A DNA stretch of 64,000 nt from assembly GCF_006345805.1 (NCBI RefSeq), contig NC_042998.1, positions 78,058,001 through 78,122,000 of the forward strand, given 5' to 3'. The notes beneath the pieces were generated by a model that did no database searches, was not told the origin of the DNA, and saw only the letters and a list, made by a program, of their open reading frames with translations. This stretch comes from Octopus sinensis. Taxonomy: Eukaryota. Made by a program: the position numbers and the translations under genes. Shown piece after piece: positions 31,026-63,490 of the stretch. Position 1 is the first letter of the stretch. Every line of letters starts with the position of its first letter.

Positions 31026-32039
31026 ATATACATACATACATACATATATATATTATATATATATATATATATATATATATATATATACATATATATATTA
31101 TATATATATATACATATATGTATATGTACATAATATGTATATATATATATATATGTAAATATTACTATTACATATATATATATATTATATATACACATAA
31201 ATGTATAATAAAGAAACGCTCCAATAGTTCAAAACAACTTTGTCGCTTCCCCATATCATAATTCGAATATAAATACATATTGAAAAATATATTAAAACAT
31301 CCAATGGTAAAACCCAGTGGTATTAAATATATCCATATATACTAAATTCTGCTGAATAAGGATCTCATTTTGTCGAAATCCCTGGTTCAGATATTGATAT
31401 TGTACTTGCAGCAAGGAAGACTCTCATTTCTTTCAATGAGCAATACTGGATGAGAAGTAACACTCTCAGCTATTTTGATATTATGATGGGGTCTTCGGAT
31501 TCTGTACCGGTGACTGACCTGCTGGGCCTATATCTCCTTTCCGAAATTACAGCTAATTTTCTCCTTTTAGACGGTGGTCTCTACAGGGATGATGCGCTAT
31601 TTACCGCGCGTGACATTTCTAAAACAGCGCTTGAGATGATGAGGAAATTTTTGATGCGACTTATGAAAAACCAGTTTGGGCTTAGCATTGTATTCGATCC
31701 TAATTCTAGGGTAGTAAACTTCTTAGATGTAACCCTTGATTTGAACACAGTTCTATTTTACCCTTATCGTAAACTTAATATAGATATTGTCACTGCTATA
31801 TCAATTAGGGTGTTGAATTTATCGGCAAATGAGCAAATTTTTGATAAGCATACAACGAAATGCAATAATGCCCTGGCCTTAAGTGGGTTTAGTAGGAAAA
31901 TATTTTATATAGAAGAAATGCTGAAAAGGAATGGGAACGACGTAAATGTGTCCCCTCCTAGCGCGACTACGAAGAGGTCGCAAGAATAACTATACTGTAC
32001 AGAACTTACAGTGTAAAACACCAACGAATAGAGGTCGCG

Positions 32040-33220
32040 CCTAAATCAGAAGTTGGAAGGGCTTTGAGGCCCATATGGAATGAAATAAAATGCCTCACTA
32101 GAGGAAGGAAATTTGCAATAATGGAGGTGTGGTTTGCGTCAGAGTTTGTGGCTAGGTAGCATCTCGTAATTCCCCTCAAGACGGAAGGGGTGATCCTTCT
32201 ACCTGGGAAGACCTGCTTCTAGGGTAAGGGTAGAAGAGATCTCTCTTGAGGTAGATGTCGCCTGGCTGCTAGCTGCCATCCTTTTGGGATTGGAGGACAA
32301 AATTGTGGTCCTCCTGGCCAAGAGAGTGTCTACAAATAATTGGCAAGGGCAGGGCCTGATAATGGCAACCCAGGCCGCCTCAAAGATTTAGAAAGGATGG
32401 TAGAAATCATCACAGTCGGTGAAGACGTAATGTTGAGAGTCATTGTGGAGGGCAGGACGCCCCGTTGCTTTAAATGTTGCGAATAAGGACACATTAAAGC
32501 AGAATTCCCTCCACCCAACGCAAGGGCTCCAAATGAGAAAACCGTACCTCCACCACAAGCGACGTGATGTGTGCGCGGGGAAGTACCAGAGAAGGGAGAA
32601 CAAAGGCAAGAAGAATAGAGTACACAAGCCCAAAAGAGGAAAAAATTAAAAAGAACTGAGGGAAAAAATGTGAACCACCACCCTAGTCCCAACCGACTCC
32701 TATCGGACCCCATGCTTTCCCACCCTCCCACTGTAGTCACCAACCCTCACCCTGCCCCCTCGTGACACAGACAATTGCACACACATCCAGGTACCCTAAA
32801 TCCCCTAAGCCTCCCTAAAAATTGGATTACGCGACAGCGTACAATAAAACGAGCAAAAATCTGAGAACAACTAAAACAGGAAATAAACTCACATGTGAAC
32901 CCCGGGTGCATCCTGGTGAGTGATAAGCAGAACTGCCTAATCAAAAAATACGGAACTGAAATTTTGGATCTAAGAATGGAAACAGAGATAATCCAATTAA
33001 GTAAGTTTCCACCAAAGGTGGACTTTAAAGATTTATATATGAATTGTTTAAAAGGGCCTTAATGAAGTCGTTCAAATGTAGAGTCGAGTGGCTTTCATTC
33101 CATTTCATTGTTCTTTTTCATCTTGTCCATTCGTTTACCTTTTTTTGTCCCCACTTTTGTTTGTCTGTCTTTATATTATCCACTCTATGTTTAGCCTCTT
33201 GTTGGCATTAAGAGAAATCA
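32040..33220 (+). mobile_element. Tx1-related ORF1-only element nested in the PLE
   Basis: MEVWFASE..LKTEGVILLP..VEGRTPRCFKC..GHIK is colinear with ORF 16598-17104; followed by a Tx1-type tail tgtttagcctcttgttggcattaagagaaat. Confidence 0.75.
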
Positions 33221-33259
33221 TAGTTTCACAACCAGAAATGTGAGACCTTTTGTAACTTT

Positions 33260-33350
33260 TCTCCTGATGAAGAGGTCCTTGCCTTTGAATTTTCTTAATG
33301 AATTTTACATTGACAAAGTGAGGCAGTATCTTTTGAAACGATTGTAGAGA
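33260..33350 (+). ncRNA. Type I hammerhead ribozyme motif with extended stem II
   Basis: tctc-CTGATGA-(agaggt..tgcct / aggca..atcttt)-GAAAC-gatt-GTA-gaga. Confidence 0.8.
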
Positions 33351-33887
33351 TGGATTTGAATGGACTTTCTTCTGGTTACCACTTAGCCCTTTATTTTTAT
33401 ATTTATAATTTATATTAATATTTTAGTATCATTGTTTTAAATGTTTATCGCTTTTATTATGTATTAATTTAATCCATATAATTTTCTTTATTCGGCTTCA
33501 CTCGTATTACCTTTTTAAGTTTTATCACCTTTCATTCGTATATATGTGTACATTTTATGCTATTGGGTTTTACCCTTGGATGCCCTGATGTTTCAGTATA
33601 TATTTATATTCGATTTATGATAATATGGGAATGTTATACGTTGTTGTGACCAATAGGAGCGTTTATTCATTACACCTTTCAATTTATTTCCCATTTCGCC
33701 TCGGTGTTGCCTAGGCACTTCCATCTGCAGTCTTATTTGTATTCTTCGGTTTAACGAAATTGCTTTTCGGTTTAATAAAATTTTAAAATTAGCCTCATAT
33801 ATATTTCAACATGTGATCTCTTGAGCACCACCAGCAAAAAAATTTTTTTCGTCTGTCTTCCCTTCTCGGGATCTTTCCTTCTCCTTT

Positions 33888-60653: not shown

Positions 60654-62453
60654 TCTTCTATATATAAAACTGAAATGCGTTTTTACCGCTTGGATCGCTT
60701 TCAATGCCACTACATCCCGTCAGATTCGCTCCAAAATTTACAGAGACATGTAGAATGAGGTGACGATGCTCGTGGGCTACCTTAGAAATCCCTATCTTAA
60801 AAGGTGTGGTTGCTAGGGGCCATCTTCCTCACTCACGCTATTTCTTACAATACCCTCTCACTCCTCTTCATATATAACTGTGACAAGACCACTACCGTTA
60901 TTTAAAGTATCTGTCACTCTCGCTATTTCCTCTCTTTTTCCCTGACTATGTTTCCTACCTTCCCATCACTTCGGCGGCGTTCTTTTAAGTATCTGTCTGT
61001 CACCAACAACACACGAGCATGAGAACAAATATTATGAATCAGATATTCTTGCGTTCATTTATATGTGTGTGTGTGTTCTATATATAAATATGTATATATA
61101 ATGTATGTGTGTGTGTGTGTGTTCTATATATAAATATGTATATATACAAAGTGTATATATCTGTATTTATGTATATTAAACTTTTTCATACTTGTTCATA
61201 GTTATATATATTTTTAAACAAATTATAAATATAATTTAATAATTTTTATTTTCAATTTAAATAATTTAAATTTTTCAATTTTATATTTTATATATTTTCT
61301 ATATTATATTTTTTTTTATGATTTTGTTTTTGGTTTTTCACTTTTTGATTTGCCTATTAGTGGTTTTATCTCTAATTTAATTTATACAGATATACATCTC
61401 ATTTGTATACATTTGTATATATAATGCGTGCACACACACACACACACACACACACATATATTATATATATATATATACATATATATATATATATATATAT
61501 ATATATATAATGTGTGCATTACGTAGTCGGTCGATTCAGCTGAAAATATGCACACCTATGTTAAAAGTGCTGGCAAGTTTGCATAACAACTATCTTTTTC
61601 CTCAAATGAAAGACGTCACCTCAAGGACAAAATTCCTCATCTTATAAAATGTGGCCCCAGTAGATCCGAATGAAATCGTGTTATATTAAACAAAATGTGA
61701 AAAGGGGTCTAAATGGGGCTGGAAGGGGATTAAAATTTCAAGGAGTGGGTGTTTAGGAATTCTCCGTTACATCAAGCTAAACTGTCAATATGTTGTTGTC
61801 CGTCGTTAAGAAATGCCAGCCATGGTGACTCTACTATCCTCAGATTCTATACCTTCAAACTTTGGTTTCCAATATTTTATTATTTTTATTCAGCTCGCAA
61901 GTTCGTCTGTCCCTTTTAAATGTTAGCGTTTTGCTGTCTGCTTTGAAGCAGACCTTTCCGTTGCCACTGCCTGATATTTATGATTGATCTTTCTAAATGT
62001 TTTATTTCTCAACTTACTCAAGATCTTCTGTTGTTTATAAATGGGAGAGAGATAGATAAAGATAGAGAGCAAGAGAAAGCGAGGGAGAGTCCGAGAGAAA
62101 AGAAAAGTAAGAGAGTGGGAAAGTGAGAGAGAAAGGAGAGAGAAACAAAAACGGAGAATCATCATCATCATCATCGTTTAACGTAGCGTTTTCCGTGCTA
62201 GCACGGGTTGGGCAGTGTGACCGGGGTCTGGGAAGCCAGGAGGCAGTGTTTCTACAGGTGGATGACCTTCCTAACGACAACCACTCTGTGAGAGTAGTGG
62301 GTCCTTTTTTCGTGCCGCCGGCTCATGTGCCAGTGGGGCTCGCAGCGGCAACGATCGGTTGGTGCTTTTTACGTGCCACCGGCACAGAAGCAAGTCAAGG
62401 CGGCGCTATAACCACACTCTTACCCGCGCGTAGAGCGGGTCACCTTCAGCTAG
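60654..62453 (+). mobile_element. Non-autonomous Helitron
   Basis: A|TC 5' end with ctatatataaaa; 3' hairpin acccgc-gcgtaga-gcgggt, then CTAG|T at 62450-62454; no TSD. Confidence 0.8.
62159..62410 (-). mobile_element. Group 3 SINE inside the Helitron
   Basis: (CAT)n-cgtttaacgt start, colinear with 60417-60592. Confidence 0.78.
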
Positions 62454-62731
62454 TATATATACACACACACACATATAGAACACACACACATATAAATGAA
62501 CGCAAGAATATCTGATTCATAATATTTGTTCTCATGTTCGTGTGTTGTTGGTGACAGACAGATACTTAAAAGAACGCCGCCGAAGTGATGGGAAGTGATG
62601 CCGGTGGCACGTAAAAAGCACCAACCGATCGTTGCCGCTGCGAGCCCCACTGGCACCTGCGCCGGCGGCACGAAAAAGGGTTCCACTACACTCATATATA
62701 TATATATATATATAATATATATATATATATA

Positions 62732-63105
62732 TATATAATATTAATTCGAGACAAAACCACTATTTTGCAAAACAAACAAGGAAAGACTTAATCAATACAT
62801 AAAAATTTTTAATATAAAGAAATAAACCGCCACTACAATCGTTTCATGTCTTCAATGACATTCGTCAGGTGGATTTTCGATCTCCTAATCTATTTTAATT
62901 TATGAAACGATTGTAGTGGCGGTTTATTTCTTTATATTAAAAATTTCTATGTATTGATTAAGTCTTTCCTTGTTTGTTTTGCAAAATAGTGGTTTTGTCT
63001 CGAATTAATATTATATAATATTTTACTATAAAATTGGATTTAATCCTAAATCTGATTTTTTCCCTGTAAATTTGGATTTATTCCCTAATATTTATTATTA
63101 TTATT
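62732..63105. repeat. Fold-back element with about 116-bp inverted arms (62732-62847 / 62902-63017) in (TA)n
   Basis: Near-perfect reverse complement; right arm extended by about 90 bp. Confidence 0.92.
62830..62872 (-). ncRNA. Canonical minimal type I hammerhead ribozyme
   Basis: Minus strand ccac-CTGACGA-atgtc-attgaa-gacat-GAAAC-gatt-GTA-gtgg. Confidence 0.88.
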
Positions 63106-63168
63106 ATATATATATATATATTATATATATATATATATAATATATATATATATATATATATATGCTTT

Positions 63169-63490
63169 TATGGTTTTATTAAAGCTGGAAAATAATAGCA
63201 AGACTGTTATTCAGAATTTCATGTTGCTCATGAACACCTGAGTGTTGGGATACGAGGTCAGCCAACTCAGAAAAATAAAGACCATTGTCACAGTGACAGA
63301 AAAATAGAGAAGAGATACAGCATGTCTATCGGGCGACAGCTGTGATAAATACTTTTTGCAGCACAACTGTCCGACGAAGGGGAACGTGAAACTGAGTATC
63401 AGTCTTGTTATAATTTTGCAGCTTTGATAAAAGCATATTACTCTACTTTTGTTATTCCATTACTATTTTTTCCATCTTGTTTTACACATA
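63169..63490. repeat. Older fold-back element (arms about 63169-63230 / 63380-63437) with a decayed U4C hammerhead at 63366-63403
   Basis: actgt-CCGACGA-aggggaacgt-GAAAC-tga-GTA-tcagt; diverged inverted copy on the left. Confidence 0.7.

What the first reader, a model, noticed from the sequence alone, without database searches (positions are those of the whole stretch)
31202..63490. Five sequence-unrelated fold-back elements share one asymmetric architecture tied to hammerheads
At 31202/33540, 37816/38028, 46426/46626, 62732/62902 and 63169/63380, two copies of an element's presumed 3' end point outward. One arm stops short, the other carries an extra tail, the flanks are mostly (TA)n or (TAA)n, and a whole or partial hammerhead lies in or near the arms. 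Only the first encloses RT sequence. Inverted pseudo-LTRs are established for PLEs; the inference is that both nicked target strands prime reverse transcription, leaving 0.3-0.4-kb ribozyme hairpins that mimic MITEs. These could be a mobile non-autonomous class and a source of dsRNA.
Basis: partly seen in the sequence, partly recalled or inferred. Interest (0 to 1): 0.74.

Follow-up and report, generated by a model that had tools for sequence, protein, structure and literature searches.

The report
Penelope-style two-armed hammerhead repeat insertions
The five small hairpin-shaped repeats are insertions of five unrelated protein-free jumping elements, three of which carry a hammerhead motif, each laid down as two back-to-back copies, one ending at a short site and one at a long site, a layout already described for Penelope-like retrotransposons, whose enzyme likely made both arms in one event.

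Summary
At all five places an inverted copy without a tail faces outward beside a direct copy with a 3' tail, mostly inside (TA)n or (TTA)n. el1 is weak: its arms are 74% alike and 1.9 kb apart.

Behind each hairpin is a linear ORF-less unit of 146-572 nt. The five units share no sequence beyond a 14-nt hammerhead stretch. A full minimal type I hammerhead motif is present in U1, U2 and U4. U3 and U5 have only non-canonical remnants. Rfam calls none of them.

In the 262-nt family, 18 of 30 loci carry an adjacent inverted partner, and all 18 junctions differ. In an arm-only sample, 15 of 16 adjacent pairs are one-long/one-short and none is symmetric. U1 gives 8 of 11, U5 10 of 11 and U2 3 of 3. 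The old U3 family gives only 7 of 11.

This is the published Penelope-like element (PLE) insertion architecture: inverted 5'-truncated copy, one-sided tail, (TA)n bias, both strands extended in vitro. The hairpin is a by-product, not the mobile unit. No unit is contiguous with a PLE ORF. dsRNA output is untested. This scan has already noted the same architecture elsewhere in this genome. It is a new member of a known kind.

The parts
31199..31345 (-). el1 inverted arm: U1 unit positions 311-455, tail-less, 74% identical to the direct copy
33225..33796 (+). el1 direct copy: full 572-nt U1 unit. Arm-homologous part about 33535-33680. 3' tail about 33688-33796 (unit 464-572)
33260..33350 (+). Full type I hammerhead motif of U1: canonical seven-base core, 5-bp helix II with a long loop, GAAA, near-palindromic 8-nt helix III, GUA cleavage triplet, 4-bp helix I
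   Evidence: Not called by Rfam
31327..31911 (+). [quoted passage not shown] It lies between the el1 arms but is not shown to belong to U1
37817..38027 (-). el2 inverted copy: U2 unit about 191-430, tail-less. Keeps only the 3' half of the hammerhead
38028..38249 (+). el2 direct 5'-truncated copy: U2 unit 313-535, including the roughly 100-nt tail, ending in (TA)n
46426..46516 (-). el3 inverted arm: U3 unit 109-199, tail-less, next to (ATT)n
46513..46745 (+). el3 direct copy: U3 unit 1-233, with a decayed hammerhead-like stretch at its 5' end and a 34-nt tail (46712-46745)
62732..62886 (-). el4 inverted copy: U4 unit about 2-192, nearly full length, tail-less, starting right after (TA)n
62830..62872 (-). 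Full minimal type I hammerhead motif of U4 at the centre of the palindrome
   Evidence: Not called by Rfam
62887..63100 (+). el4 direct 5'-truncated copy: U4 unit about 60-262, with the 70-nt tail (63018-63092), followed by (TTA)n(TA)n
63169..63225 (-). el5 inverted arm: U5 unit 29-83, tail-less, 82% identical
63355..63500 (+). el5 direct copy: U5 unit 1-146, with a non-canonical hammerhead-like stretch and a roughly 60-nt tail. Separated from its arm by about 130 nt of other repeat

Best explanation
Each of the five fold-backs is one insertion of a short ORF-less retroelement (three of the five families carry a full hammerhead motif), likely copied by a Penelope-like element's reverse transcriptase primed from both cut strands of an AT-rich microsatellite. 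What the calls show: every window element is an inverted, 5'-truncated copy ending at an internal 'short' site, placed head-to-head with a direct copy that runs on to the 'long' 3' end with the tail. The same linear units also occur elsewhere as solo, 5'-truncated, partly tandem and two-armed insertions. The inversion junction differs from copy to copy. In four families, pairs are almost always one short end plus one long end. What is inferred: one target strand primes at the long site and the other at the short site. The two cDNAs meet at variable points and are then joined, sometimes at a few shared bases and sometimes with 4-24 nt of filler. The hairpin is therefore a scar of integration, not a transposing unit. 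The enzyme comes in trans from autonomous PLEs, such as the RT plus GIY-YIG element at 35193-37524.
For: Junction variability: 18 of 18 adjacent pairs among 30 U4 loci picked only for identity to the last 143 nt have different junctions. There are 19 junction classes among 20 full-length fold-backs. Left arms range from 16 nt (L109) to full length beside a full direct copy, so snap-back synthesis and a common hairpin master are both excluded. End-site asymmetry: in the U4 arm-only sample, 15 of 16 adjacent pairs in 25 loci are long/short, 1 is indeterminate and 0 are symmetric, while solos are 5 long and 2 short. U1 has 11 pairs in 19 loci, 8 long/short and 0 symmetric. U5 has 11 pairs in 28 loci, 10 long/short. 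U2 has 3 of 3. PLE hallmarks: 5' truncation; partial tandems in 5 of 6 U2 loci and a roughly 200-nt U3 array; (TA)n on both sides; a minimal type I hammerhead with a palindromic or near-palindromic 8-nt helix III in U1, U2 and U4, as Cervera and de la Pena 2014 describe for PLEs (PMC4209133, passages). Autonomous PLEs lie in the window (RVT_1 plus GIY-YIG; further fragments). Literature: Craig et al. 2021 (PMC8557442, passages) describe the inverted 5'-truncated copy, the one-sided tail and the (TA)n bias. Frangieh et al. 2024 (PMC11167929, abstract and passages) show both strands cleaved and extended, and two RT start sites that bound the tail.
Against: No unit shares its 3' end with, or lies contiguous to, a PLE ORF. 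PLE fragments near some loci are separate insertions or sit on the other strand. No P0001-like ORF was found upstream in any of the 19 other U1 loci. Mobilisation by a PLE therefore rests on architecture and the ribozyme motif alone. Rfam finds no hammerhead, and cleavage is untested. U3 and U5 lack a canonical core. In the old U3 family only 7 of 11 pairs are long/short, with 3 long/long and 1 short/short. The el1 arms are 74% alike and 1.9 kb apart, so they may be two separate insertions. Tails here are 34-110 nt, against the 30-40 bp in print. Frangieh et al. saw no difference in start site between the two strands in vitro. Samples are the best-scoring 25-30 of 200-1500 candidates per family, not random draws, and three of them were chosen with queries that include the tail.
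Confidence: 0.8

Rival explanations
1. The hairpin plus tail is itself the mobile unit (a MITE-like or SINE-like fold-back). It was formed once and then copied many times. The differences at the centre would be later deletions at an unstable palindrome tip.
For: In the search with the whole el4 fold-back, most of the 40 scored copies align over positions 1-355 at 85-99%. L046 has the same junction as the window copy at 99% identity but different flanks.
Against: There are 19 junction classes among 20 copies and 18 different junctions among 18 pairs. Several copies have a full-length direct copy next to a 16-28-nt inverted stub (L109, L134, L117). A centre deletion would have to end exactly at the unit's 5' end each time to produce these. 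10 of 30 and 7 of 25 loci are solo linear copies. The shared junction of the window copy and L046 sits on a 5-nt stretch common to both partners, so it can recur independently.
Confidence: 0.08
2. These are non-autonomous DNA transposons (MITEs of the Tc1/mariner or PIF type) with terminal inverted repeats, inserted at TA or TAA.
For: The arms are inverted repeats next to TA- or TAA-rich sequence. A mariner-type transposase fragment lies at 59257-60057.
Against: The outer termini are not inverted repeats of each other, because one side carries a 34-110-nt tail that the other lacks. Arm length varies from copy to copy. Solo, 5'-truncated and tandem copies are common. Every U4 copy examined has the same 3' end and a variable 5' end, which is the mark of reverse transcription.
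Confidence: 0.03
3. The inversions are assembly artefacts, or independent neighbouring insertions that landed by chance in the same microsatellite in opposite orientation.
For: PLE-type structures are known to trouble assemblies (Craig et al. 2021, passage read). (TA)n tracts attract repeated insertions. Tail-to-tail and distant pairs also occur (L115, L123, L124, L187). el1 may be such a case.
Against: Dozens of loci on different contigs show the same head-to-head order with gaps of 0-25 nt. Independent hits would give both orders and all end combinations, yet 15 of 16 pairs (U4), 10 of 11 (U5) and 8 of 11 (U1) are long/short and none in those three families is symmetric.
Confidence: 0.06

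Closest known systems
Insertion architecture of endonuclease-positive Penelope-like elements (Craig, Yushenova, Rodriguez and Arkhipova 2021, PMC8557442, passages read; Frangieh et al. 2024, PMC11167929, abstract and passages read)
   Same: 5' truncation, partial tandems, an inverted 5'-truncated copy abutting the 5' end, a tail present at only one end, a bias for (TA)n, and hammerhead motifs in the repeats. In vitro, both target strands are cleaved and extended, and two RT start sites bound the tail.
   Different: The inserted units here carry no ORF and are only 146-572 nt long, so a whole insertion can be a 0.3-0.4-kb hairpin. Tails are 34-110 nt rather than 30-40 bp. The one-long/one-short pairing is close to a rule in four families, whereas the in vitro work reported no strand difference in start site.
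Metazoan non-LTR retrozymes (Cervera and de la Pena 2020, PMC7229834, passages read; Li, Clavereau and Pollet 2026, bioRxiv 10.64898/2026.07.22.740005, abstract read)
   Same: Short, AT-rich, ORF-less repeats with a type I hammerhead whose helix III is short and palindromic. They are proposed to be non-autonomous derivatives of PLEs. U2 and U3 occur as head-to-tail repeats.
   Different: Retrozymes are defined as tandem arrays expressed as circular RNAs. Here most copies are solo or two-armed, U4 was not seen in tandem, and no RNA evidence was obtained. Neither 'inverted' nor 'cephalopod' occurs in the main text of PMC7229834.
L1 twin priming (Ostertag and Kazazian 2001; recalled, not read here)
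   Same: Both strands of the cut target prime reverse transcription, giving an inverted 5' segment joined to a direct 3' segment.
   Different: In L1 the second primer anneals inside the same RNA, so the inverted part comes from upstream sequence and the two parts do not overlap. Here both arms cover the same 3' region and start at two fixed sites.
MITEs and fold-back DNA transposons
   Same: Size, hairpin shape and AT-rich insertion sites.
   Different: No matching termini, variable arms, 5' truncation, and solo and tandem forms (see the membership test).

Membership tests
PLE-mobilised non-autonomous retroelement | Constant 3' end with variable 5' truncation | tested here: met
   U4: 30 of 30 loci share the 3' end (they were chosen for it). 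Direct-copy starts range from unit position 1 to 85. U1 starts range from 1 to 477.
PLE-mobilised non-autonomous retroelement | Inverted 5'-truncated copy abutting the 5' end | tested here: met
   U4 18 of 30 and 16 of 25 loci; U1 11 of 19; U5 11 of 28; U2 3 of 6.
PLE-mobilised non-autonomous retroelement | Tail present at one end only (two alternative 3' end sites) | tested here: met
   Long/short pairs: U4 15 of 16, U1 8 of 11, U5 10 of 11, U2 3 of 3, U3 7 of 11.
PLE-mobilised non-autonomous retroelement | Partial tandem copies (pseudo-LTR) | tested here: inconclusive
   Met for U2 (5 of 6 loci) and for U3 (four-unit array in L039). Not seen for U4 in 55 loci, apart from neighbouring copies separated by (TA)n (L047).
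PLE-mobilised non-autonomous retroelement | Hammerhead motif of the PLE or metazoan type (short palindromic helix III) | tested here: inconclusive
   A full motif is found in U1, U2 and U4 by my descriptor, with 2 hits in the window against 0.03-0.075 in shuffles. It is absent from U3 and U5. There is no Rfam hit, and many U1 copies have a mutated core. Cleavage was not tested.
PLE-mobilised non-autonomous retroelement | 3' end shared with an autonomous PLE of the same genome | tested here: not met
   No similarity between any unit and the 3' UTR of the window's PLE. tblastn over about 160 loci found only separate or opposite-strand PLE fragments. The test was limited to 1.5-kb flanks and two PLE queries.
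Metazoan non-LTR retrozyme | Tandem array of 150-450-nt units, each with a type I hammerhead | tested here: inconclusive
   U2 (535 nt) reaches about 1.9 units and U3 forms a short array. U1, U4 and U5 are mostly solo or two-armed.
Metazoan non-LTR retrozyme | Expression as self-cleaved linear and circular RNA | not testable with these tools
   No listed holder is on record as RNA, and the contigs cannot show RNA ends.
MITE / TIR DNA transposon | Matching terminal inverted repeats at both outer ends, with uniform copies | tested here: not met
   The outer ends differ by the tail. Junctions and arm lengths vary, and solo copies lack one arm.
MITE / TIR DNA transposon | Fixed-length target-site duplication | tested here: inconclusive
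   The flanks are microsatellites, so no duplication can be read. Craig et al. 2021 report the same problem (passage read).

The most novel reading that the evidence does not exclude
In a two-armed PLE-type insertion the two reverse-transcription start sites are not used at random. Each event uses the long site once and the short site once, one per target strand. That would mean a single asymmetric complex makes both cDNAs in a coupled reaction: either one RNA read twice, or an RNA dimer held by the palindromic hammerhead helix III. This rule is not visible in the published in vitro assay. Short ORF-less families like these, with hundreds of young copies, would be the natural material to prove it.
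Probability: 0.35. Interest if true: 0.6.

Novelty: new member of a known kind. Interest (0 to 1): 0.38.

Why it matters
How PLEs integrate is still poorly understood. Their tandem and inverted insertions and the one-sided tail are described but not explained. These short, young, high-copy families give many independent integration scars in one genome. From these scars one can read junction positions, end-site use and target choice. The near-absence of long/long and short/short pairs is a concrete constraint on any model. For annotation, 0.3-0.4-kb hairpins in (TA)n tracts of this genome should be filed as retroelement insertions, not as MITEs or microRNA-like hairpins. Rfam offered only sub-threshold miRNA matches to them.

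Tried and rejected
Rfam at gathering score and at E<=10, on 34 kb and on two 151-nt slices, gave no hammerhead, only sub-threshold miRNA-like hits to the palindromes and microsatellites. The hammerhead calls therefore rest on my own descriptor. My first version of that descriptor had a bug and found nothing; it was corrected.

Sequencing runs: no RNA holder is listed. Logan contigs of four runs laid on 62200-63600 are short and saturated by the repeat families. No contig has 31 or more letters on both sides of the el4 junction. This means there is no locus-specific check of the assembly and no statement on expression.

Link to a PLE ORF: the promising locus L079/L080 turned out to be a 2.7-kb tandem duplication. 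It holds a PLE on the opposite strand, a separate U5 insertion and a tRNA-like repeat.

Shared private variants between the two arms of a pair were meant to test for a common template. There was no power. The distal arm is almost invariant in this young family, and alignment across the palindrome adds noise: 4 shared against 113 unshared variants in pairs, 290 against 4357 in non-pairs. Only L121 shows clear concordance of subfamily markers, 8 shared against 1.

Junction microhomology: BLAST extents give overlaps of 0-23 nt or fillers of 4-24 nt. Palindromy makes these overlaps ambiguous, so I make no claim beyond single cases read by eye.

A look-up of earlier scan notes by sequence for el4 and for the 226-nt repeat found nothing relevant.

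Literature searches for 'Penelope' + 'cephalopod' + 'hammerhead' and for 'Penelope-like' + 'twin priming' found no paper describing these families or this model for PLEs. Subscription journals are not covered.

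
Full report
**Setting.** The window lies in a 2.7-Gb animal genome. It is AT-rich and full of (TA)n and (TTA)n tracts. An earlier first-reader note of this scan calls the genome cephalopod; I did not verify that. The window holds several Penelope-like elements (PLEs):
- an RT plus GIY-YIG element on the minus strand at 35193-37524 (RVT_1 and GIY-YIG), which ends in (TA)n;
- a 58%-identical RT fragment at 30059-31024;
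- fragments of a second PLE type at 31327-31911 and 50966-51340.

**Observation.** They are strong for el2, el3 and el4 (113, 91 and 131 nt at 91-94%). They are weaker for el5 (57 nt, 82%) and el1 (about 145 nt, 74%, with 1.9 kb between the arms). In each case the inverted arm stops short and the direct copy runs on into a tail. The flanks are microsatellites.

Rfam reports no hammerhead at any threshold I tried. My descriptor asks for the seven-base core, helix II, GAAA, a short or palindromic helix III, a U followed by a non-G base, and a helix I of at least 4 bp. It finds two complete motifs in the window, at 33260-33350 (+) and 62872-62830 (-), against 0.03-0.075 per shuffled window. The window copy of el2 keeps only the 3' half of its motif, because the inversion junction cuts helix II. 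Full family copies carry the whole motif with a 7-bp helix I. el3 and el5 have only non-canonical remnants.

**What the units are.** Searching the own genome with each element shows that a linear, ORF-less unit lies behind every hairpin.

| Unit | Length | Reference copy | Candidates in first look |
|---|---|---|---|
| U1 | 572 nt | window 33225-33796 | 203 |
| U2 | 535 nt | L003 | 6 (6 loci including the window's own) |
| U3 | 233 nt | window 46513-46745 | 526 |
| U4 | 262 nt | L108 | 609-1211 |
| U5 | 146 nt | window 63355-63500 | 1506 |

The units share no BLAST similarity except 14 nt of the hammerhead helix III region between U1 and U4. In unit coordinates the window copies read as follows:
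- el1: inverted 311-455, direct 1-572;
- el2: inverted 191-430, direct 313-535;
- el3: inverted 109-199, direct 1-233;
- el4: inverted 2-192, direct about 60-262;
- el5: inverted 29-83, direct 1-146.

**Per-insertion or unit-wise spread.** I took 30 U4 loci chosen only because their last 143 nt are 100% identical to the window.
- 18 have an inverted partner directly upstream, 2 have one 110-160 nt away, and 10 have none.
- All 18 junctions differ.
- Left arms run from 16 nt to full length, and direct copies start anywhere from unit position 1 to 85.
- None of the 18 partners carries the tail. BLAST puts 10 outer ends at unit position 192 and seven at 116-205. The 257 reported for L117 is an extension into the TA-rich flank; read by eye, that arm is tail-less too.

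Among 20 copies that match the whole window fold-back there are 19 junction classes. Only L046 shares the window's junction, which lies on 5 nt common to both partners. A full direct copy beside a 16-28-nt inverted stub (L109, L134, L117) cannot come from snap-back synthesis. It is also a poor fit to deletion at a palindrome centre.

**End-site rule.** A second U4 sample used a 90-nt arm-only query, which does not favour either end.
- Of 25 loci, 16 have adjacent pairs: 15 long/short, 1 indeterminate, none long/long or short/short.
- Solo copies are 5 long and 2 short.
- If end sites were drawn independently, at most half of the pairs would be mixed.

The other families give:

| Family | Loci examined | Pairs | Long/short | Other |
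|---|---|---|---|---|
| U1 | 19 | 11 | 8 | 3 with one arm ending elsewhere, 0 symmetric |
| U5 | 28 | 11 | 10 | 1 indeterminate |
| U2 | 6 | 3 | 3 | none (partial tandems in 5 of the 6 loci) |
| U3 (older) | 22 | 11 | 7 | 3 long/long, 1 short/short |

The U1, U5 and first U4 samples were drawn with queries that include the tail. They could therefore miss short/short pairs, but not long/long ones.

**Comparison with print.** Craig et al. 2021 (PMC8557442, passages read) describe for PLEs a high degree of 5' truncation, partial tandems, an inverted 5'-truncated copy at the 5' end, a 30-40-bp tail often at one end only, and a (TA)n bias. Frangieh et al. 2024 (PMC11167929, abstract and passages read) show that a purified PLE protein cleaves and extends both strands. 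They also show that it starts reverse transcription at two internal RNA sites whose interval is the tail. Cervera and de la Pena 2014 (PMC4209133, passages read) describe minimal PLE hammerheads with palindromic helix III positions that may act as dimers. The 8-nt helix III stretch is palindromic in U2 and palindromic with one G-U pair in U1 and U4. Their 2020 paper and Li et al. 2026 treat animal hammerhead repeats as non-autonomous PLE derivatives. The architecture is therefore known. The families, their small size, and the near-strict pairing of one long and one short end are what this analysis adds.

**Limits.**
- No unit is tied to a PLE ORF.
- The RT fragment inside el1 belongs to a PLE with a C-terminal GIY-YIG-like part (P0001). 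The 13 of 19 other U1 loci whose 5' part aligns all begin within unit positions 1-16, and none of the 19 has a P0001-like ORF upstream.
- The last 226 nt before the (TA)n to the right of el1 are a separate family with 2759 candidates. el1 is therefore the least secure of the five and may be two separate insertions.
- Ribozyme activity, expression and dsRNA formation are untested.
- Every U4 copy examined carries (TTA)n(TA)n at its 3' end, even where the 5' flank is unique sequence (L118 and L125). Part of the flanking microsatellite may therefore come with the element rather than from the target.

**Earlier notes of this scan.** Two follow-up notes on other pieces of the same genome (e1-8807173 and e1-9532777) describe hammerhead repeats that land in TA microsatellites as two arms ending at two fixed sites. 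My counts on five other families agree with them. The scan has thus found this before on other DNA.

**Verdict.** The hairpins are integration scars of non-autonomous PLE-type elements, not a new mobile class.

Noticed in passing
window 33797-34022 (+): A separate 226-nt repeat family: 2759 candidates in the first look, and 39 of 40 scored matches are other copies at 94-98% identity (the fortieth is the window itself). It ends in (TA)n. It folds as a three-helix type I hammerhead-like motif (33886-33954), but with C instead of U at core position 4 and one extra A between positions 9 and 10.1. A related motif sits about 100 nt from the 3' end of a PLE in L165.
   Followed up: partly
window 35193-37524 (-): A nearly intact PLE. 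The RT ORF (603 aa, RVT_1) and the GIY-YIG ORF overlap in different frames, so there is one frameshift. The 3' UTR ends in (TA)n at about 34380. My descriptor finds no hammerhead in its 3' UTR.
   Followed up: partly
window 62289-62384 / 62599-62694 and 60959-61100 / 62454-62595: Two further inverted-repeat pairs (96 nt at 94% and 142 nt at 93%) that are not in the finding. The GC-rich pair belongs to a repeat with enormous contig depth in all four runs laid. Its right arm ends at the (TA)n that precedes el4.
   Followed up: no
L105-L134, 3' flanks: Every U4 copy examined is followed by (TTA)n(TA)n, including two copies whose 5' flank is unique sequence. Part of the microsatellite may be made or carried by the element.
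   Followed up: partly
L188; L169; G000:C23:15960282-15960741: In some pairs one arm consists of the tail segment alone (U4 unit 206-262, U1 unit 467/477-562/572), joined to the 5' end of a tail-less copy.
   Followed up: no
L165 (G000:C4:68893001-68903000): A 2.7-kb tandem duplication (98.5% identity) containing a PLE RT/EN on the minus strand, a U5 copy on the plus strand, a tRNA-like repeat and microsatellites.
   Followed up: partly
window 41948-42322 and 44098-44472; 59257-60057: Two identical ORF stretches 2150 nt apart point to a local duplication within a non-LTR retrotransposon region. A mariner-type transposase fragment (Transposase_1, HTH_48) lies at 59257-60057.
   Followed up: no
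window 62825-62925: Rfam's best, sub-threshold match to the el4 palindrome is a microRNA precursor family (mir-8338, 40 bits against a gathering score of 80). Such hairpins could be mis-annotated as miRNA genes.
   Followed up: no
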